From a virus, in the IMG/VR virus record IMGVR_UViG_3300045988_123230, positions 1 through 13,404 of that record: 13,404 bases of DNA; one strand, written 5' to 3'. Made by a program: the position numbers and the translations under genes. Under the pieces are notes generated by a model. That model had not been told where the DNA came from and searched no databases. It was given only the letters and a program-made list of their open reading frames with translations. Of this stretch, positions 1 to 13,404 are shown in pieces (position 1 is the first letter of the stretch; each line of letters starts with the position of its first letter).

Positions 1-249
1 GGGCCGCAGTGACATTATTATACTTTCATAACAATTCCCCTATACTTATATAATTATATTTCATAACAATCAGTTTACACCCGCTAAACTCCTGTTTACT
101 CATACCAAACCCATTCAATTCACACTAACTAAACTCTAGTTTACCAACACTGAACCGAAATTTGTTTCAATTTTTTCTCAAATTTTTTTAAAAAACCTCT
201 TGATTTTTCGGCGCGTTGTGGTAAAATAATCACGTCGGAAGGGGTGAGA
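1..249. repeat. Left inverted terminal repeat (ITR-L), 249 bp
   Basis: Bases 1..249 are the exact reverse complement of 13156..13404, base by base to the window ends. Identity stops at 250 (a) versus 13155 (complement t). The 5' end begins GGG. Contains internal repeats, phased A/T tracts, a promoter and an SD. Confidence 0.97.
200..227 (+). promoter_or_regulatory. Early promoter inside ITR-L (sigma-A/sigma-70 type, extended -10), reading inward
   Basis: TTGATT (200..205), 16-nt spacer, TGgTAAAAT (219..227). An A/T-rich UP-like tract lies upstream at 158..195. Predicted +1 is near 234, followed by the SD GGGGTGA (241..247) and ATG 252. Confidence 0.7.
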
Positions 250-251
250 AT

Positions 252-446
252 ATGAATACCGAATACATTATCAATGTGATTTTCACAGCAGCTTTAGCGT
301 ATGAGAGAGGACGTGCAATTGCAGATGATTTGGATTCGTACATTGTGCAATCAGAAGGTTTTAACGCTGTTATGAGTATCATTCAGTGTTTAGGTTTAGT
401 GCTTGAATACAATGAATGGAAAGAACAACATATTATAAGGAGGTGA
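252..446 (+). CDS. Hypothetical early protein, 64 aa
   Basis: First ORF after the ITR promoter, with ATG 4 nt after the SD GGGGTGA. Tightly packed against the next SD-led ORF. No recognisable motif. Confidence 0.6.
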   Translation: MNTEYIINVIFTAALAYERGRAIADDLDSYIVQSEGFNAVMSIIQCLGLVLEYNEWKEQHIIRR

Positions 447-1245: not shown

Positions 1246-1255
1246 GAAAGGAGTG

Positions 1256-1289
1256 CCGTGGAATTGAGTAAATTCCACGGCTATTTTGT
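1256..1289 (+). terminator. Stem-loop with U-tract (attenuator or partial terminator) between the SSB candidate and TP candidate
   Basis: Perfect 10-bp stem CCGTGGAATT (1256..1265) / AATTCCACGG (1271..1280) with loop GAGTA, followed by CTATTTTGT. It lies between an SD (AAAGGAG, 1247..1253) and ATG 1290. Confidence 0.5.
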
Positions 1290-1926: not shown

Positions 1927-3981
1927 ATGGAGCTGGAAGCAGTTAAAAAATTAATAAAGAATGCTTCACTAGTTCCACATAAGAGACGACGTGCAAGGCG
2001 GGAAATAATTGATTTAGTGTGCGCTTTTGACATTGAAACAACAACCATCATGCATAAAGACGAATATCACGCTTTTATGTATGTTTGGCAATTTTCAGCG
2101 AATAATGAGGTTATCATTATAGGAAGAACATGGGAAGAATATCAAGAGTTGGTCGGCGTAATAGAAGAAAGTCTGAAAGAGCTTAAAGAAGAATACAATT
2201 TAAAAGAAATGCCATTGTTAGTTGTATATGTGCATAATTTGGCATTTGAATTTCAATATTTATCTGGAATATTTGATTTTATGCCGGAAGATGTTTTTTT
2301 ACGTGGCGCACGAAAACCTATATATGCCCGTACTGGATGTATAGAATATCGGTGTAGCTATATTCAATCTAATATGAGTTTAGCACGATTCTGTCAAGCT
2401 ATGGGCGTGAAAGAGCAAAAAAAGAGCGGACAAAAATATGATTATACAAAAACAAGATATCCTTGGACAGAGTTGTCAAATGATGAAATTGAATATTGCC
2501 GAATGGATGTTATAAGTGTTGTTGCATGTATTAAAAAGGAACTTGAGAAAGAGAATGATACACTTCTGAGCATACCCTTAACTAGTACCGGATATGTTAG
2601 GCGCGAATGTTATAATGCACTCAAGCCGAAAATGAAAACGTTGCAAAGTATCATGCCGTCGCTTGAAGAATATACGCTGTTGCGTAAAGCGTTTAGGGGC
2701 GGCAATACTCACGCAAACAAGTATTATGTTGGTAAAGTTATTGAGAATGTATTGTCTGATGATAAAGCTAGTAGTTATCCAGCACAGCTTGTAAATGAGA
2801 AATACCCATATAAATTTAAAAAAATAGATAGCACAGTTGAAGAAGTGCATAGATTTATTTCATACGGTTGCGCAGTTGTATTTACAGTTATTTTTAAAAA
2901 TCTTGAGCTTAGGCGTGAAAAAGAAGCATGCCCGTATATAAGTTTAGCAAAAACACGTTCAGCTGGCGGGCAAAGTTGCGGTGATGGTTATCTTGATTTG
3001 ATATTGGATAACGGCAGAATACTGAGTGCAGGAATAAGTGAAATGACAATTACGGAAATTGATTATGATATTATAAGAAATCAATATCAATGGGAAGATA
3101 TGACCATAACAGCGGCGATGTTTGCTGAAAAGGATTATTTGCCGAAAGAGTTTATAGAGGTTATTTTGGAATATTATAGTAGAAAGACAAAATTAAAAGG
3201 TTTGGAGGATGAAGAAAACCAATATTTTTACATGAAAGCAAAGAATTTATTGAATAGTCTTTATGGTATGTGCGCAACTAATCCTATACAAGATACGATA
3301 GAGTATATTGATAATGATTATATAGAGCGTCCACATACGGATGAAGAAAATAAAAATCTGCTGATGAAAGCAAAGTTGCCGTATCAATGGGGCGTATACT
3401 GTACAGCATACGCGCGGAAAGCGTTGCAAGATGGTATTGACGCTGTTGGAAATGCTCTTGTATATTGTGACACAGATAGTGTCAAGTATGTTGGTGATGC
3501 TAATTTTGACAAAGTAAATAAGAGTATCATGATACAGGATAAAAAGCGCGGCGGATATGCAGTAGACGGAAAAGGAACGACACATTATTTAGGGATATTT
3601 GAACCTGATGGAAAGTATGAGAAATTTATTACGCAGGGCGCAAAAAGATATGCTTATATAACTAACGGGAAATTAAAAGTTACTGTTTCCGGCGTAACAA
3701 AGAAAATCAATGAACAAACAGGAAAACCGTTTGCAAGTGAAGAATTAAAGGACATTGAGAATTTTAAAGTCGGCATGATATGGAAGGACGCAGGCGGAAC
3801 AAGAGCAGTATATAATGATAACGATAATTTTGATATAGATGTAGAAGGAAAGACCTTACATATAAGCAAAAATGTCGTAATTGTGCCAACAACATATGAG
3901 CTTACATATAGTAAGGATTATGACGAGTTGTTGAATCGTATTAGTCTATATGGCAGATGGAGAAAGGATAAACGTGTATGA
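1927..3981 (+). CDS. Protein-primed family-B DNA polymerase (phi29-type pPolB), 684 aa
   Basis: SD GAAGGTGA lies 5 nt upstream. Motifs seen: ExoI FDIETT, ExoII HNLAFEFQY, ExoIII YCRMDV, motif A DDKASSYPAQ (Dx2SLYP-like), motif B KNLLNSLYG, motif C YCDTDS, and KxY as GAKRYAY. Confidence 0.93.
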   Translation: MELEAVKKLIKNASLVPHKRRRARREIIDLVCAFDIETTTIMHKDEYHAFMYVWQFSANNEVIIIGRTWEEYQELVGVIEESLKELKEEYNLKEMPLLVVYVHNLAFEFQYLSGIFDFMPEDVFLRGARKPIYARTGCIEYRCSYIQSNMSLARFCQAMGVKEQKKSGQKYDYTKTRYPWTELSNDEIEYCRMDVISVVACIKKELEKENDTLLSIPLTSTGYVRRECYNALKPKMKTLQSIMPSLEEYTLLRKAFRGGNTHANKYYVGKVIENVLSDDKASSYPAQLVNEKYPYKFKKIDSTVEEVHRFISYGCAVVFTVIFKNLELRREKEACPYISLAKTRSAGGQSCGDGYLDLILDNGRILSAGISEMTITEIDYDIIRNQYQWEDMTITAAMFAEKDYLPKEFIEVILEYYSRKTKLKGLEDEENQYFYMKAKNLLNSLYGMCATNPIQDTIEYIDNDYIERPHTDEENKNLLMKAKLPYQWGVYCTAYARKALQDGIDAVGNALVYCDTDSVKYVGDANFDKVNKSIMIQDKKRGGYAVDGKGTTHYLGIFEPDGKYEKFITQGAKRYAYITNGKLKVTVSGVTKKINEQTGKPFASEELKDIENFKVGMIWKDAGGTRAVYNDNDNFDIDVEGKTLHISKNVVIVPTTYELTYSKDYDELLNRISLYGRWRKDKRV

Positions 3982-5009
3982 GTGATTTGTATCTTGATAA
4001 TGGTTATGTTAATTTTGATTATCTATGGAATAAGAATCAGAGTTTTATGCTGCTAGTCGGCGGATGGGGAACAGGTAAGACTTACGGCGCATTAAAAAAG
4101 GTGCTTGAGACCGGAAAGAAGTTTATATATATGCGCCGTCTTGAGACTGCTCTTGAGATTTCAAGTGACGCTGACGGAAACCCCTTTAAAAAACTTAATA
4201 AGGATTTAGGTATGAACATACAGCCGATTATTAAAAAGAATCTAGTTAAGTATTATGAATGTGATGTTGACGACAACGGAAGGAATATCCCGAAAGGCTT
4301 GCCTATTGGTTTAGGCGTCGCGCTTTCAACGTTTTCAAAAATGCGCGGCGTTGATTTTTCCGATATTGATTATATCATTTATGATGAGTTTATAGCTATG
4401 AGTGGCGAAAGAACTATCAAAGATGAGTTTTCAGCATTTTTGCGATTTTACGAGACGGTGAATCGAAATCGCGAATTATCGGGCGAATCTGCTGTAAAGT
4501 GTTATATGCTGGGAAATCCGAATACAATGGGCAATGCCTACTTTTTGGGTTGGGACTTAGTCAAAAAGTGGCAAGTGATGGATAGGAGTAAACAAAATAT
4601 CTACACAGATATGAAATCCGGTATTACGCTGATTAGGCTTAATGATAGCCCCATCTCCAAACGAAAGCAGACTGAAACAGTGCTGTATAAAACCGATGAT
4701 GAATACATGTACGAGAATGGAATTATAGCGCAGTTCGCACAAAGCACACAGAATATCAAATCGCTGAATATGCGTGAATGTTATCCGATTGTAGGAGTGG
4801 GAAGAATCGGTATATATGGGTTGAGGTCAAGAGATGGGTTATATGTATCGTCAAAGGGAATAGGCAACCCATATTATATGAACAGAGATGACGACTTAAA
4901 GAATTTTAGGATTATGTATGGATTGCTTAAGGTTAGTTATTTCCGGAAAACCATTATTTTTGAAAATTATGATTGTGAATTACGCTTTAAGGAGTATTTC
5001 GGTCTATAA
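3978..5009 (+). CDS. DNA encapsidation ATPase (phi29 gp16-like), 343 aa
   Basis: Walker A GGWGTGKT and Walker B DYIIYDEF. Size is close to phi29 gp16 (332 aa). The start ATG overlaps the polymerase stop as ATGA (3978..3981). No small terminase or nuclease-type large terminase is seen anywhere. Confidence 0.8.
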   Translation: MSDLYLDNGYVNFDYLWNKNQSFMLLVGGWGTGKTYGALKKVLETGKKFIYMRRLETALEISSDADGNPFKKLNKDLGMNIQPIIKKNLVKYYECDVDDNGRNIPKGLPIGLGVALSTFSKMRGVDFSDIDYIIYDEFIAMSGERTIKDEFSAFLRFYETVNRNRELSGESAVKCYMLGNPNTMGNAYFLGWDLVKKWQVMDRSKQNIYTDMKSGITLIRLNDSPISKRKQTETVLYKTDDEYMYENGIIAQFAQSTQNIKSLNMRECYPIVGVGRIGIYGLRSRDGLYVSSKGIGNPYYMNRDDDLKNFRIMYGLLKVSYFRKTIIFENYDCELRFKEYFGL

Positions 5010-5027
5010 TGTTTCACGTGAAACATT
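5008..5027. promoter_or_regulatory. 20-bp perfect palindrome AATGTTTCACGTGAAACATT (candidate operator/activator site)
   Basis: Perfect dyad centred at 5017/5018. It overlaps the ATPase stop codon and the first 2 nt of the -35 hexamer. Its 16-bp core TGTTTCACGTGAAACA recurs exactly at 7903..7918. Confidence 0.55.
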
Positions 5028-5053
5028 GACAAATCGCGCTTATATGATATAAT
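5026..5053 (+). promoter_or_regulatory. Candidate late promoter (near-consensus, extended -10)
   Basis: TTGACA (5026..5031), 16-nt spacer, TGaTATAAT (5045..5053). Predicted +1 is near 5060. Confidence 0.65.
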
Positions 5054-5057
5054 AGAT

Positions 5058-5130
5058 GTGGGCGGTGGTTGTGCAACGCAAGCCCCTGAAGGGCGCACAG
5101 TGTCGGCGGACAAATGAGACTGCCGCCTGC
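5058..5130 (+). ncRNA. Candidate structured RNA (three-helix junction) at the 5' end of the promoter-5026 transcript; pRNA-like packaging RNA or stabilising leader
   Basis: Hand-folded. P1 pairs 5058..5066 with 5122..5130 (GC-rich, GGGCGG/CCGCC core, with G-U pairs). P2 pairs 5070..5074 with 5095..5099 and 5082..5085 with 5091..5094 (loop CUGAA). P3 pairs 5100..5104 with 5116..5120 (one mismatch). It starts at the predicted +1 and is much more GC-rich than the following 300 nt. Confidence 0.35.
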
Positions 5131-5148
5131 CAATTAAGGAGTGATTTG

Positions 5149-5289
5149 ATGTATCGAACTATAGGATTTGAAGTATCAGCGAAAGCAGTTGTTCTTATTT
5201 TATGTGAGAGAACAGACGGCAATAAATTTTCTGATAATATGCATTTTTTTAACTATAAAAAACGAATATATAGGTATCTTATCCGCTAA
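5149..5289 (+). CDS. Possible small ORF, 46 aa (MYRTIGFEVSAKAVVLILCERTDGNKFSDNMHFFNYKKRIYRYLIR)
   Basis: Good SD AAGGAG (5136..5141) lies 7 nt before ATG 5149, the internal Met of track ORF 5056..5289. Composition is AT-rich, the sequence is unremarkable, and it is not tightly packed with its neighbours. Confidence 0.3.
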   Translation: MYRTIGFEVSAKAVVLILCERTDGNKFSDNMHFFNYKKRIYRYLIR

Positions 5290-5309
5290 TAGATTTTCAT
5301 ATCAAAGAG

Positions 5310-5338
5310 TTGGCAACATGCTAATAGGCAGATATAAA
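5310..5338 (+). promoter_or_regulatory. Weaker second promoter candidate upstream of the lysis genes
   Basis: TTGGCA (5310..5315), 17-nt spacer, TATAAA (5333..5338). Supported by sequence match only. Confidence 0.25.
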
Positions 5339-5439
5339 CTATATCCTTATGAGTATGAGGCTGATAAAAAATATTTAGAATTGGGTGATTATCGGTTACC
5401 ACCGAATTTTGAACACGGTAATAAAAGGGGGTGTATGTA

Positions 5440-5667
5440 ATGGAAACTTTCATTCAATTCATTCAAACGCTTGGCTTCCCGATTGCAATTGCAGTCTATC
5501 TCTTGTATGACAGGTCTAAGGCAGACCAGCTCCATAAGGATGAGATGGATGCAATGCGCAAAGAGATGGAAAACAGCAATGCAAAGATGACAGAGGCGTT
5601 GAACAACAATACCAATGTTTTGTCGCGAATCTTGGAGGTGTTGCATGTTGGTAACGGTGAAAGCTGA
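5440..5667 (+). CDS. Holin, BhlA/UviB-like, 75 aa
   Basis: SD AAAGGGGG (5424..5431) precedes ATG 5440, preferred over the track's GTG 5431. One N-terminal TM helix (LGFPIAIAVYLLY) is followed by a charged coiled-coil tail (DRSKADQLHKDEMDAMRKEMEN), the architecture of BhlA-type holins. Lies directly upstream of, and overlapping, the endolysin gene. Confidence 0.65.
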   Translation: METFIQFIQTLGFPIAIAVYLLYDRSKADQLHKDEMDAMRKEMENSNAKMTEALNNNTNVLSRILEVLHVGNGES

Positions 5668-6153: not shown

Positions 6154-6294
6154 ATGGCGACAGCAACGCATACCTTTGTGCGGCTGGATTTTGTAGAATC
6201 CAACGGCACAGTGGATAAAGAGGAATTTGAGTTTGCTCAGGATGTAAAGCCTATCGGTGTGACAGTAACAAAAAAGGAGGTAAATGTACCTTGA
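6154..6294 (+). CDS. Hypothetical small protein, 46 aa (MATATHTFVRLDFVESNGTVDKEEFEFAQDVKPIGVTVTKKEVNVP)
   Basis: Read by hand. SD GAGGTGA (6141..6147) lies 6 nt before ATG 6154. The stop TGA (6292..6294) overlaps the TTG start (6291) of the next gene. Confidence 0.45.
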   Translation: MATATHTFVRLDFVESNGTVDKEEFEFAQDVKPIGVTVTKKEVNVP

Positions 6295-6662
6295 AAATTA
6301 ACGATATTATTGCATTGACTAATGCTGGATGGAGCAAAGATGAAATTATCAGAATGGCGGGTATTGAATCGCCATCTGCACCGCCTGCTCCTGCACCTGC
6401 TCCCGCTCCCGCTCCTGCTCCTGCACCTGCTCCCGCTCCCGCTCCTGCTCCTGCACCTGCTCCTGCTCCCGCTCCCGCTCCCGCTCCCGCTCCCGCCCCT
6501 GCTCCCGCCCCTGCTCCTGAACAGGCTCAGGAGAACGAAACGATTAAGCTGCTGAAAGAGTTGACAGGAATGGTGCGAATGGGCAACATTAACAACATCA
6601 ATCAGCCAAACTCTCAGCCCGAAGATGCCGCCGAATTGCTTGCAAAAATCATGAATCCGTGA
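6291..6662 (+). CDS. Candidate scaffolding protein with a (Pro-Ala)22 linker, 123 aa
   Basis: TTG start lies 10 nt after AAAAAGGAGG (6271..6280). Sits immediately upstream of the capsid gene, the position of phi29 gp7. A small N-terminal helical module and a C-terminal helical/acidic tail are joined by PSAP(PA)22P. Confidence 0.55.
   Translation: MKINDIIALTNAGWSKDEIIRMAGIESPSAPPAPAPAPAPAPAPAPAPAPAPAPAPAPAPAPAPAPAPAPAPAPAPEQAQENETIKLLKELTGMVRMGNINNINQPNSQPEDAAELLAKIMNP
6372..6518 (+). repeat. Hexanucleotide (CCNGCN) tandem repeat tract encoding PSAP(PA)22P
   Basis: Includes a perfect 30-bp tandem duplication, CTGCACCTGCTCCCGCTCCCGCTCCTGCTC, at 6391..6420 and 6421..6450, followed by degenerate copies. 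Confidence 0.95.
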
Positions 6663-12622: not shown

Positions 12623-12655
12623 AAAAAGGTGGGCAATGCCCACCTATTTTATTTC
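12621..12655. terminator. Bidirectional rho-independent terminator between the convergent late and right-early operons
   Basis: An A7 run (12621..12627) precedes the stem GGTGGGC (12628..12634) / GCCCACC (12638..12644) with loop AAT, followed by TATTTTATTT. It sits between the stop at 12622 (+) and the stop at 12649 (-). Confidence 0.8.
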
Positions 12656-13106: not shown

Positions 13107-13155
13107 TTTTCTTTTCCTCCTTAAATACCGTAGTTGCTATACAACTCTCCGTTAA

Positions 13156-13404
13156 TCTCACCCCTTCCGACGTGATTATTTTACCACAACGCGCCGAAAA
13201 ATCAAGAGGTTTTTTAAAAAAATTTGAGAAAAAATTGAAACAAATTTCGGTTCAGTGTTGGTAAACTAGAGTTTAGTTAGTGTGAATTGAATGGGTTTGG
13301 TATGAGTAAACAGGAGTTTAGCGGGTGTAAACTGATTGTTATGAAATATAATTATATAAGTATAGGGGAATTGTTATGAAAGTATAATAATGTCACTGCG
13401 GCCC
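13156..13404. repeat. Right inverted terminal repeat (ITR-R), 249 bp
   Basis: Exact reverse complement of 1..249. Confidence 0.97.
13178..13205 (-). promoter_or_regulatory. Early promoter inside ITR-R, reading inward (mirror of 200..227)
   Basis: Identical sequence to the left promoter by ITR symmetry: TTGATT, 16 nt, TGgTAAAAT on the - strand. It drives the 13106..12649 operon. Confidence 0.7.

What the first reader, a model, noticed from the sequence alone, without database searches (positions are those of the whole stretch)
5008..5439. Only large gene-poor interval holds a near-consensus promoter firing into a compact GC-rich three-helix RNA, a pRNA-like candidate next to the packaging ATPase gene
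Genes elsewhere in this genome overlap or lie fewer than 10 nt apart, yet 5010..5439 (430 bp) has no convincing gene. It opens with TTGACA-16-TGaTATAAT. At the predicted +1 (about 5060) begins a GC-rich segment of about 70 nt that I can fold by hand into a three-way junction. P1 pairs 5058..5066 with 5122..5130. P2 pairs 5070..5074 with 5095..5099 and 5082..5085 with 5091..5094. P3 pairs 5100..5104 with 5116..5120. About 300 nt of AT-rich sequence follows. phi29-group phages need a pRNA, built on a three-way junction with paired 5'/3' ends, to dock the gp16 ATPase on the connector. To my knowledge such RNAs are documented only in Bacillus phi29 relatives. This phage has the same gp16-type ATPase and no terminase, so an RNA adaptor is a reasonable expectation, and this is the best locus for it. 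The alternatives are a stabilising or regulatory 5' leader of the late operon, or a leader for small ORFs (5149..5289, with a good SD; 5318..5440, whose stop overlaps the holin ATG as TAATG). A second GGCGG (5105..5109) competes with 5061..5065 for CCGCC (5123..5127), so alternative folds are possible.
Basis: partly seen in the sequence, partly recalled or inferred. Interest (0 to 1): 0.7.

Follow-up and report, generated by a model that had tools for sequence, protein, structure and literature searches.

The report
Conserved structured leader RNA, late operon
A small phi29-like phage starts its late (lysis and particle-building) transcript with a 70-base, tightly folded RNA that is conserved by compensating mutations in well over 60 related phage genomes, matches no catalogued RNA family, has the layout of the phi29 packaging RNA in miniature, and has no known job.

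Summary
A perfect TTGACA-16-TGaTATAAT promoter (5026-5053) fires into a real structured RNA (about 5058-5130).

Its P3 is mis-drawn: the true P3 is 5101-5104/5109-5112 with a GGCG loop. That loop pairs with the P2 bulge (5077-5079) as a pseudoknot.

A covariance model built only from distant relatives finds the window element at 56 bits. Across 52 sequences, 97.6% of cells are paired and compensatory changes are massive. The pseudoknot swaps as a block among about 11 sequence combinations.

The "gene-poor" claim is half wrong. 5149-5440 is a frameshifted copy of an accessory ORF that sits in a variable cassette slot.

The RNA always sits at the 5' end of the late operon. In rearranged genomes it follows that operon, not the ATPase gene. 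Most relatives, though not the window, have a U-tract right after P1.

No Rfam family matches it. The pRNA model finds nothing here but does find B103 pRNA.

Best reading: a new cis-encoded leader module of the late transcript, recognised by a protein, acting as attenuator or 5' cap. A miniature pRNA-like packaging adaptor is not excluded (about 0.2). A cultured carrier (Amedibacillus phage AD70P3) makes it testable.

The parts
3978..5009 (+). gp16-type DNA encapsidation ATPase gene, the last gene of the early/replication block
   Evidence: Pfam PF05894 at 2.6e-14 and PHROG 2150 at 5.6e-31. More than 1000 homologues were found.
5010..5025 (.). Perfect 16-bp palindrome TGTTTCACGTGAAACA abutting the -35 box, probably an operator for a regulator
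   Evidence: Read from the sequence. The same palindrome recurs in L009 (twice), in L080/81/82/92, and as a variant in L083. In those relatives it lies between the RNA and the first late gene.
5026..5053 (+). Late-operon promoter: -35 TTGACA, 16-nt spacer, extended -10 TGaTATAAT. The predicted start is about 5059-5061.
   Evidence: It scores 12/12 and is the best site in the window. A promoter scoring >=9/12 lies within 25 nt upstream of the element in 92% of 51 unique relatives, against 4.8% at random positions.
5058..5130 (+). The structured RNA element as a whole: a three-way junction plus a pseudoknot
   Evidence: CM R1 hit at 5061-5127, 56.4 bits, E about 1e-12, from a model built without window-clade sequences. 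Covariation is shown. There are 74 G-U cells against 11 A-C cells, so the fold is strand-specific.
5058..5069 (+). P1 5' strand, which pairs with 5119-5130
   Evidence: All 9 modelled P1 pairs carry double changes, and 96.8% of cells are paired. The P1 sequences are entirely different in L002, L005, L007 and L008.
5070..5074 (+). P2a 5' strand, which pairs with 5095-5099
   Evidence: All 5 of 5 pairs show compensatory changes.
5075..5081 (+). 7-nt 5'-side bulge AACGCAA. C5077-G5078-C5079 pair with G5108-C5107-G5106.
   Evidence: The pseudoknot columns were not in the model, yet 100% of cells pair: CG 40 / UA 8 and GC 47 / UA 1. Block swaps appear in divergent members.
5082..5094 (+). P2b hairpin, GCCC-CUGAA-GGGC, with a near-invariant apical loop C-N-G-A-A
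   Evidence: The G, A and A of the loop are invariant in A2 and A3. The stem covaries among GCCC/GGGC, CUCC/GGAG, GGCC/GGCC and GGGC/GCCC.
5095..5099 (+). P2a 3' strand
5101..5112 (+). P3 hairpin UGUC-GGCG-GACA. Its loop is the pseudoknot partner.
   Evidence: All 5 of 5 pairs show double changes, and 99.6% of cells are paired. The RNAfold MFE structure agrees.
5113..5118 (+). J3/1 strand AAUGAG, with G5116 and A5117 conserved
   Evidence: G and A are invariant in A2 and A3.
5119..5130 (+). P1 3' strand. In the window it is followed by CAAUUAAGGAG and has no U-tract.
5137..5142 (+). Shine-Dalgarno AAGGAG of the first downstream ORF, 6 nt after P1
   Evidence: Read from the sequence. Across the family the SD begins 5-23 nt after P1.
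5149..5440 (+). Frameshifted accessory ORF (5149-5289 in frame 1 and about 5189-5440 in frame 2), sitting in a variable cassette slot
   Evidence: tblastn of the L002 98-aa ORF gives 3e-10 and 2e-20 in two frames. L097 has a non-homologous intact 94-aa ORF at this position, and L005, L008 and L098 have none.
5440..5667 (+). Holin, the first conserved late gene
   Evidence: PHROG 4898 holin at 2.7e-07, plus a weak YvrJ match.

Best explanation
The element is a new family of structured RNA that forms the first roughly 70-90 nt of the late (lysis and morphogenesis) transcript in a large clade of small phi29-like, Guelinviridae-like phages.

PROPOSED MECHANISM
1. Host RNA polymerase starts at a near-consensus promoter.
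2. The nascent RNA folds into P2a, a bulge, P2b and P3.
3. The P3 loop pairs with the P2 bulge, most simply within one molecule, because P2a (5 bp) and P3 (4-5 bp) place the two at the same height.
4. A long P1 closes the fold by pairing the very 5' end with the strand just ahead of the first ribosome-binding site.
5. The invariant C-N-G-A-A apical loop and the conserved GA in J3/1 are displayed for a trans-acting factor, most likely a protein.
6. In most relatives, P1 plus an adjacent U-tract makes an intrinsic-terminator-like attenuator at the head of the late operon. This is analogous in logic to lambda pR'-tR' or nut leaders: a strong constitutive promoter with read-through set at the RNA.
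7. In the window, which lacks the U-tract, the same fold remains as a base-paired 5' cap on the late mRNA. That cap would also protect against 5'-end-dependent decay.

SHOWN
- The promoter.
- The fold, the pseudoknot and the strand specificity.
- The position at the head of the late operon in all arrangements.
- The U-tract enrichment.

INFERRED
- That the pseudoknot forms in cis.
- That a protein binds the loop.
- That the fold controls termination or stability.
For: FOLD AND PSEUDOKNOT
- 97.6% of cells are paired. There are 454 double-change cells against 117 in shuffles. The covariation score is 0.88 against 0.20 for shuffled and 0.10-0.15 for slid controls.
- RNAalifold on a MAFFT-only alignment recovers the same junction, with 18 of 21 pairs compensatory.
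- The pseudoknot changes as a block: YGC/GCR, CUC/GAG, GGA/UCC, GUC/GAC, AGAC/GUCU, GGUC/GACC, GGCA/UGCC, AACC/GGUU, UGUGC/GCACA and GCUCA/UGAGC.

LEADER POSITION
- There is one copy per genome, on the sense strand, downstream of a promoter scoring >=9/12 in 92% of members.
- The SD begins 5-23 nt after P1.
- The first gene downstream varies (holin, scaffold-like protein or accessory ORF), but it is always the late operon.
- In L089/L090 and MT835998, whose late module is inverted, the RNA moved with the late operon and not with the ATPase gene.

TERMINATOR-LIKE FEATURE
- At least 5 of 8 U directly after P1 in 78% of 51 members. The figure is 9% genome-wide and 31% in upstream intergenic DNA.

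RNA RATHER THAN DNA
- 74 G-U cells against 11 A-C cells in paired columns.

NOT A KNOWN FAMILY
- No Rfam hit at E<=10.
Against: - No experiment bears on function.
- The window and L005 lack the U-tract, so attenuation cannot be the universal role.
- P1 of 11-20 bp is too stable to be switched easily.
- No candidate RNA-binding regulator was identified among the small early proteins. They have no Pfam or PHROG hits and no arginine-rich motif.
- A plain hairpin would suffice as a 5' stabiliser, so stabilisation alone does not explain the conserved core.
- The features that argue for a leader (the 5' end at +1, the long terminal helix, complementary loops) are equally those of a discrete pRNA-like molecule released from the transcript.
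Confidence: 0.45

Rival explanations
1. Miniature pRNA analogue. The leader is released from the late transcript, either by termination at the U-tract or by cleavage in or after P1. It assembles on the portal vertex through bulge-to-loop pairing between neighbouring molecules, hand in hand, and docks the gp16-type ATPase through P1.
For: - It occurs essentially only in phi29-like phages with gp16-type ATPases. All IMG/VR relatives with >=39% ATPase identity were hits (41 of the 59 loci searched), and divergent members extend to about 30% identity.
- None of the first 80 loci stored from the scan of bacterial and archaeal genomes scored above the value that the hairpin alone gives.
- The topology is that of pRNA domain I: a terminal helix made of the 5' and 3' ends, a three-way junction, a 5'-side bulge followed by an apical hairpin, and a second hairpin whose loop is complementary to the bulge.
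- That complementarity is hypervariable between lineages, like the pRNA CE/D loops (PMC5066667).
- The apical loop is invariant, as expected for a protein contact.
- The U-tract would define a discrete 3' end.
- The AD70P3 ATPase is about 30% identical to the pRNA-dependent gp16 of B103 and Nf.
- pRNAs share only about 12% sequence identity, so failing a sequence-based model is expected (PMC5066667).
Against: - RF00044 finds nothing at E<=10 but does find B103 pRNA.
- The element is half the size of pRNA, and P1 carries no conserved bulges.
- It is always fused to the late mRNA, with the SD 5-23 nt away, and it follows the late operon rather than the ATPase gene.
- The equal heights of P2a and P3 suggest a pseudoknot in cis.
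- By my own rough geometry, a ring of about 10-bp arms would be too small to encircle a phi29-type connector.
- The window portal has no basic N-terminal segment like the RKR of phi29 gp10.
- asccphi28 shows that gp16-type motors can work without an evident pRNA (PMC7823558).
Confidence: 0.2
2. Trans-acting small RNA, a decoy or sponge. An abundant short transcript from the strong promoter titrates a host or defence protein through the exposed CNGAA loop. Late mRNA arises by read-through.
For: - The promoter is near-consensus.
- A terminator-like U-tract follows P1 in 78% of members.
- The exposed loop is invariant.
- In L009 and L080-L083 an operator palindrome lies downstream of the RNA, so the RNA could be made even while the late genes are blocked.
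Against: - No target is known.
- The window lacks a terminator.
- The strict position ahead of the late genes is not required for a trans-acting RNA.
Confidence: 0.12
3. Riboswitch. The junction and pseudoknot form a ligand pocket that tunes termination or translation of the late operon.
For: - It has a compact three-way junction with a tertiary pseudoknot in a 5' UTR, next to a U-tract and an SD.
- Some junction nucleotides are conserved, namely the GA in J3/1.
Against: - P1 is 11-20 bp and perfectly paired, far more stable than switchable riboswitch P1 helices.
- There is no alternative (anti-terminator) pairing and no expression platform between P1 and the SD.
- Few junction nucleotides are conserved; the best-conserved bases sit in an exposed apical loop.
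- No Rfam riboswitch matches.
- The motif was not found in the sampled bacterial chromosomes.
Confidence: 0.07
4. Self-cleaving ribozyme that processes the 5' end of the late mRNA.
For: - It has the size and architecture typical of small ribozymes: a three-way junction with a loop-to-bulge tertiary contact, as in the hammerhead.
- It is phage-borne.
Against: - There is no match to the hammerhead, twister, twister-sister, pistol, hatchet or HDV models.
- The junction strands are short (0-1, 1-2 and about 5 nt), with only GA conserved.
- No conserved candidate cleavage dinucleotide is evident.
Confidence: 0.04

Closest known systems
phi29-family prohead/packaging RNA (pRNA; Rfam RF00044)
   Same: - It is encoded by a phi29-like, protein-primed podovirus with a gp16-type ATPase.
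- The 5' and 3' ends pair in a terminal helix.
- It has a three-way junction.
- One arm carries a 5'-side bulge followed by an apical hairpin.
- The other arm is a hairpin whose loop is Watson-Crick complementary to that bulge, and the two covary between phages.
- The helices have little sequence conservation.
   Different: - It is 61-91 nt against 120-174 nt for pRNA, and it has no domain II.
- P1 has no conserved bulge such as CCA.
- The junction has no U-rich strand; it has a 5-nt J3/1 with a conserved GA.
- There is no hit to RF00044.
- It is transcribed as the leader of the late operon, not from an early promoter at a genome end.
- Whether the loops pair between molecules is unknown, and prohead binding is untested.
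Lambdoid late and early leader control RNAs (pR'-tR' '6S' leader; nut boxB; HK022 put)
   Same: - A strong constitutive promoter sits directly ahead of the lysis and morphogenesis genes.
- There is a short structured leader, often ending in a terminator-like stem plus a U-tract.
- It carries a small hairpin with a conserved purine-rich pentaloop (GCCC-CUGAA-GGGC, compared with boxB GCCCU-GAAGA-AGGGC).
- Its length of about 70 nt and its promoter-proximal position resemble put.
   Different: - There is no sequence or CM relationship.
- It has a closed three-way junction with a pseudoknot, rather than one or two open hairpins.
- No N-, Q- or Nus-type partner was identified.
- The late operon has no strong internal terminators that would need processive antitermination.
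5'-terminal stabiliser stem-loops of Firmicute and phage mRNAs (ermC, aprE or SP82-type), and exonuclease-resistant three-way-junction pseudoknot RNAs (flavivirus xrRNA)
   Same: - The helix begins at or within a few nt of the transcription start.
- It is a compact three-way junction with a pseudoknot of about 70 nt.
- It lies ahead of a long, heavily used mRNA.
   Different: - Stabilisers need only a simple hairpin.
- The pseudoknot topology differs from xrRNA (bulge to loop here, 5' end to junction there).
- No evidence on decay is available.

Membership tests
phi29 pRNA (Rfam RF00044) | Scores against the family covariance model | tested here: not met
   No hit at E<=10 on the whole window or on 5040-5150. 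As a positive control, the B103 pRNA was found at 50.2 bits, E 5e-10, in the same mode. It is missed at the 100-bit gathering score.
phi29 pRNA (Rfam RF00044) | Host genome is a phi29-like phage with a gp16-type ATPase, a protein-primed PolB and terminal repeats | tested here: met
   PF05894, PF03175, the Phi29 SSB and MCP families, and 252-nt ITRs.
phi29 pRNA (Rfam RF00044) | The 5' and 3' ends pair in a long A helix that joins a three-way junction | tested here: met
   P1 is 11-20 bp and fully covarying, and it joins a three-way junction. It is shorter than the A helix and has no conserved bulges.
phi29 pRNA (Rfam RF00044) | A bulge loop (CE) and a hairpin loop (D) are complementary and covary | tested here: met
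   The bulge-to-P3-loop pairing is 100% maintained, with about 11 different sequence combinations.
phi29 pRNA (Rfam RF00044) | That loop pairing is intermolecular and builds a multimeric ring | not testable with these tools
   Sequence cannot distinguish cis from trans pairing. The equal heights of P2a and P3 favour cis (inference).
phi29 pRNA (Rfam RF00044) | Size of about 120 nt (domain I), or 174 nt with domain II | tested here: not met
   The element is 61-91 nt across 51 members and 73 nt in the window.
phi29 pRNA (Rfam RF00044) | A separate early transcription unit at a genome end | tested here: not met
   It is always the 5' leader of the late operon, with an SD 5-23 nt downstream.
phi29 pRNA (Rfam RF00044) | Binds proheads, and packaging is RNase-sensitive | not testable with these tools
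   This needs experiments. Amedibacillus phage AD70P3 is a cultured carrier.
Intrinsic-terminator attenuator leader | A stable stem immediately followed by a U-tract, between the promoter and the first gene | tested here: inconclusive
   This holds in 78% of the family at >=5/8 U, against 9% and 31% in controls. It does not hold in the window, which has CAAUUAAGG.
Riboswitch | A marginally stable P1 with a mutually exclusive alternative pairing or expression platform | tested here: not met
   P1 is 11-20 bp. There are only 5-23 nt to the SD and no alternative helix was seen. No Rfam riboswitch hit was found.
Known small self-cleaving ribozymes (hammerhead, twister, twister-sister, pistol, hatchet, HDV) | Match to the family model or to its conserved catalytic core | tested here: not met
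   No Rfam hit at E<=10. The junction strands lack the hammerhead CUGANGA/GAAA core, as read from the sequence.

The most novel reading that the evidence does not exclude
This is the first packaging-RNA analogue outside the Bacillus phi29 group. It would be a roughly 70-nt 'mini-pRNA' cut or terminated from the head of the late transcript. It would oligomerise through its lineage-specific bulge-to-loop pairing and bridge the portal vertex and the gp16-type ATPase in a large clade of gut and rumen Guelinviridae-like phages.
Probability: 0.2. Interest if true: 0.92.

Novelty: new variant of a known kind. Interest (0 to 1): 0.72.

Why it matters
pRNA is the only RNA known to be an obligatory part of a viral DNA-packaging motor. 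By current reviews it is confined to Bacillus phages (PMC11476376, PMC5066667). Whether other phi29-like phages use an RNA is an open question.

What was found:
- An uncatalogued RNA with very strong covariation support.
- It is present in nearly every member of a large, mostly uncultured clade of 12-15 kb phi29-like phages.
- Its topology is pRNA-like, but its genomic role is different: it is the leader of the late operon.

Both outcomes are informative. One would be a minimal pRNA, useful for motor mechanism and RNA nanotechnology. The other would be a new RNA-based control or protection module for late gene expression in protein-primed phages.

A cultured carrier, Amedibacillus phage AD70P3, makes both readings directly testable.

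Tried and rejected
- megablast of the whole window against GenBank phages gave no match.
- Rfam gave nothing in the region, on the whole window or on the 111-nt region at E<=10.
- The single-sequence folding z-scores are not significant, so thermodynamics alone is no evidence.
Model R2 was run on the first 80 loci stored. All scored <=27 bits, about what the hairpin alone gives and below every full-structure member, so no chromosomal members were found in that sample. The remaining stretches were not examined.
- My own descriptor scan is imprecise, with some false positives and some misses. It still revealed the members in L089/L090, MT835998 and AD70P3.
- Clostridium phage phiCP7R and Eggerthella phage LE1-1 (Guelinviridae) and Bacillus phage B103 gave no convincing hit with R2, even with filters off.
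- Pfam and PHROG searches of the small early and right-end ORFs, and of the 104-109 aa ORF that precedes the RNA in the large clade, found nothing. No arginine-rich candidate partner was seen.
- The hammerhead and twister ideas were rejected on core sequence and on Rfam.
- A coding explanation was rejected because the variation is compensatory rather than codon-like. This covers the ATG at 5056 and the minus-strand ORFs over the element.
- A DNA-level structure was rejected because of the excess of G-U over A-C cells.
- The metagenome-contig scan was not used, because the existing sample was sufficient.
Full report
WHAT THE WINDOW IS

The 13,404-nt window is a complete linear genome with perfect 252-nt inverted terminal repeats. 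It encodes a phi29-type SSB, a protein-primed family-B polymerase, a gp16-type encapsidation ATPase (3978-5009), a holin (5440-5667), an NlpC/P60 lysin, a phi29-type major capsid protein and an upper-collar connector. No close relative exists among GenBank phages. The ATPase, however, has more than 1000 homologues on 12-15 kb contigs from gut, rumen and other metagenomes. The nearest cultured relatives are the Amedibacillus phages AD70P2 and AD70P3 (Guelinviridae), at 33% ATPase identity.

CHECKING THE OBSERVATION

The promoter is real as a sequence feature. TTGACA-16-TGaTATAAT (5026-5053) scores 12/12 and is the best promoter-like site in the window.

Thermodynamics alone therefore proves nothing.

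The decisive evidence is comparative. In four relatives with 70-80% ATPase identity, the same roughly 73-nt element follows the ATPase gene. The P1 sequences are completely different but always complementary.

In the 45%-identity clade the element lies after one extra small ORF and directly ahead of the holin gene.

A covariance model built from nine sequences of that distant clade only finds the window element at 56.4 bits (5061-5127, E about 1e-12). It finds exactly one sense-strand copy per genome.

On 52 aligned members:
- 97.6% of cells are canonical pairs.
- 24 of 26 pairs have double changes.
- 454 cells are compensatory, against 117 in shuffles.
- The covariation score is 0.88, against 0.20 for shuffled and 0.10-0.15 for slid controls.

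RNAalifold on a MAFFT-only alignment, not fitted to any model, gives the same junction, with 18 of 21 pairs compensatory. Paired columns hold 74 G-U cells but only 11 A-C cells, so the structure belongs to the transcribed strand and is RNA.

CORRECTED ANATOMY (window coordinates)

| Part | Coordinates | Note |
|---|---|---|
| P1 | 5058-5069 / 5119-5130 | closing helix of the 5' and 3' ends |
| P2a | 5070-5074 / 5095-5099 | |
| Bulge | 5075-5081 | AACGCAA, on the 5' side |
| P2b | 5082-5085 / 5091-5094 | loop CUGAA |
| J2/3 | 5100 | G |
| P3 | 5101-5104 / 5109-5112 | loop GGCG |
| J3/1 | 5113-5118 | conserved GA |

That loop pairs with C5077-G5078-C5079 of the bulge. This pseudoknot was not part of the model, yet it is 100% maintained (CG 40 / UA 8; GC 47 / UA 1).

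In divergent members the pseudoknot is replaced as a block:

| Bulge / loop pairing | Where seen |
|---|---|
| CUC/GAG | L071 |
| GGA/UCC | L010, AD70P3 |
| GUC/GAC | L079 |
| AGAC/GUCU | L080-82, L092 |
| GGUC/GACC | L084 |
| GGCA/UGCC | L085/86 |
| AACC/GGUU | L094 |
| UGUGC/GCACA | L083 |
| GCUCA/UGAGC | L089/90 |
| GGG/CCC | L087/88/91 |

These are documented. The most conserved nucleotides are the C-N-G-A-A apical loop, the A residues flanking the pseudoknot segment, and the GA in J3/1.

THE 'GENE-POOR' CLAIM

Only 5010-5148 is non-coding.

The stretch 5149-5440 matches the intact 98-aa ORF of L002 in two frames. Residues 1-37 match at 3e-10 and residues 16-96 at 2e-20. The frame change lies near the T7/A6 runs at about 5244-5263. 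It is therefore a frameshifted gene, or a sequencing error in a homopolymer.

A genome whose ATPase is 99% identical (L097) keeps the promoter and the RNA, with three substitutions in the RNA. Two of them, at the outer end of P1, preserve pairing. That genome carries an unrelated intact 94-aa ORF in the same slot. L007 has yet another ORF there, and L005, L008 and L098 have none. The AT-rich 300 nt is thus an accessory-gene cassette slot and not part of the RNA.

CONTEXT ACROSS THE FAMILY

- **Promoter.** One scoring >=9/12 ends within 25 nt upstream of the element in 92% of 51 unique members, against 4.8% at random positions. P1 therefore begins at about +1.
- **Downstream spacing.** The SD of the next gene begins 5-23 nt after P1.
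- **Next gene.** It is the holin in most genomes, a coiled-coil scaffold-like protein in some (L084, L094, AD70P3), and an accessory ORF in a few. It is always the head of the lysis and morphogenesis operon.
- **Rearranged genomes.** In L089/L090 and MT835998 the late module is inverted relative to the ATPase gene. There the RNA lies kilobases from the ATPase gene on the other strand, still as promoter-RNA-SD-holin-capsid.
- **U-rich tract.** One follows P1 directly in 78% of members (>=5/8 U). The figure is 9% genome-wide and 31% in upstream intergenic DNA. P1 plus this tract looks like an intrinsic terminator in most relatives, but the window itself has CAAUUAAGG.

DISTRIBUTION

The element is found in all IMG/VR relatives with >=39% ATPase identity. 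Divergent forms extend to about 30% identity.

It was not detected in phiCP7R, LE1-1 or B103.

A context-free pattern scan of viral contigs returned 19 phi29-like genomes, five hairpin-only chance hits and one full-structure outlier. The outlier is in a 48-kb high-GC contig (L016, 38.7 bits), next to an ArdC-like gene.

The 80 loci that were searched with the model gave only hairpin-level scores of <=27 bits.

COMPARISON WITH KNOWN SYSTEMS

Rfam 15 has no match at E<=10. The Phage_pRNA model works in this mode: it finds B103 pRNA at 50 bits, E 5e-10. It does not reach its own 100-bit gathering score there.

Topologically the element is pRNA domain I in miniature. It has a terminal helix, a three-way junction, a 5'-side bulge followed by an apical hairpin, and a second hairpin whose loop pairs with the bulge through a lineage-specific sequence.

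It differs from pRNA in several ways:
- Its size is 61-91 nt.
- P1 lacks conserved bulges.
- The junction composition is different.
- It sits as the late-operon leader rather than as a separate gene.

The literature states that pRNA is known only in Bacillus phages (PMC11476376, PMC5066667). It also reports that the phi29-like asccphi28 has no evident pRNA and has a self-assembling ATPase (PMC7823558). A gp16-type ATPase therefore does not by itself predict an RNA adaptor. The window's connector also lacks a basic N-terminus like the RKR of phi29 gp10 (the phi29 detail is from my own knowledge).

MECHANISM

I rank a cis-encoded leader module first, at 0.45. It would be recognised by a protein and act as an attenuator or 5' cap.

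The reasons are:
- The invariant linkage is to the late promoter and the late operon.
- The SD is immediately adjacent.
- P1 plus the U-tract forms a terminator-like unit in most members.
- The best-conserved bases sit in an exposed apical loop, as in boxB-type protein sites.

Its logic resembles lambda pR'-tR' or nut leaders, although there is no homology.

The pRNA-like adaptor remains a live alternative, at about 0.2. Every structural hallmark that can be read from sequence is present. The family is essentially confined to gp16-type phages. Being the leader of the structural operon would deliver the RNA together with the prohead proteins.

A trans-acting decoy (0.12), a riboswitch (0.07) and a ribozyme (0.04) are less likely, for the reasons given in the rival entries.

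Whether the bulge-to-loop pairing is in cis or in trans is the pivotal unknown, and it cannot be read from sequence. The matching heights of P2a (5 bp) and P3 (4-5 bp) make cis the simpler reading (inference).

VERDICT

Part of its drawing and part of its premise were wrong. The element is an uncatalogued RNA family with a defined anatomy, a clear genomic rule (the head of the late operon), a striking resemblance to pRNA topology, and a cultured phage in which to test it.

Noticed in passing
window 1-252 and 13153-13404: There are perfect 252-nt inverted terminal repeats, so the window is a complete linear phage genome. Promoter-like sites lie symmetrically inside both repeats (25-54 + / 13380-13351 -, and 200-227 + / 13205-13178 -).
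   Followed up: partly
window 5010-5025; L009 about 4577-4627 (two copies); L080, L081, L082 and L092 after the RNA; L083 about 5243-5260 (variant ATGTTCCACGTGGAACAT): A perfect 16-bp palindrome, TGTTTCACGTGAAACA, recurs in several lineages of this phage family. In the window it abuts the -35 box of the late promoter. Elsewhere it lies between the leader RNA and the first late gene. It looks like the operator of an unidentified regulator of the late operon, acting as a roadblock or repressor.
   Followed up: partly
window 5149-5440: This is an accessory ORF split by a frameshift near the homopolymer runs T7 (5244-5250) and A6 (5258-5263). The slot between the leader RNA and the holin gene holds unrelated ORFs or nothing in close relatives (L002, L007, L097, L005, L008, L098). 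It behaves as a recombination or cargo hotspot at the head of the late operon.
   Followed up: yes
window 6291-6662: This 123-aa ORF contains a long perfect (Ala-Pro)n repeat of about 25 dipeptides, between a short N-terminal domain and a C-terminal tail. It lies just upstream of the capsid gene. Similar Pro/Ala-rich proteins occupy the same position in L089 and MT835998, so it may be a scaffold or linker protein.
   Followed up: no
window 12627-12645: A strong bidirectional terminator hairpin (AGGTGGGCAATGCCCACCT, flanked by A and T runs) sits where the rightward late operon meets the leftward right-end genes. It is the source of all the weak Rfam 'hits' in the window.
   Followed up: no
window 1255-1281: An 11-bp perfect hairpin (GCCGTGGAATT...AATTCCACGGC) followed by TATTTTG lies between the SSB gene and the putative terminal-protein gene. 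It is terminator-like and sits inside the early block.
   Followed up: no
L012 about 4425-4460; L044; L071; L009 about 4450-4480: In many relatives the terminator hairpin that ends the early operon carries the -35 box (TTGACA) of the late promoter in its loop. This is an extreme compaction of a terminator and a promoter.
   Followed up: no
L016 2490-2565 (-), IMGVR_UViG_3300045996_002476 (47.9 kb, high GC): This is the only full-structure instance of the motif outside small phi29-like genomes (38.7 bits with R2; pseudoknot GAUG/CAUC). It is intergenic. Its P1 3' strand overlaps the SD and the AUG of an unknown Cys-rich ORF, and an ArdC-like gene lies nearby. It may reflect horizontal transfer or convergence.
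   Followed up: partly
L224 (Bacillus phage B103) 172-287 (-): The Rfam Phage_pRNA model scores a genuine pRNA at only 50 bits, against a gathering score of 100 bits. A gathering-threshold scan therefore misses known pRNAs, and absence at 'gathering' is not evidence of absence.
   Followed up: yes
L009 4123-4437; L010 4111-4434; L012 4083-4412: A conserved 104-109 aa ORF of unknown function lies between the ATPase gene and the late promoter in the large clade. Copies are 37-46% identical to each other and have no Pfam or PHROG hit. It is absent at that position in the window clade.
   Followed up: partly
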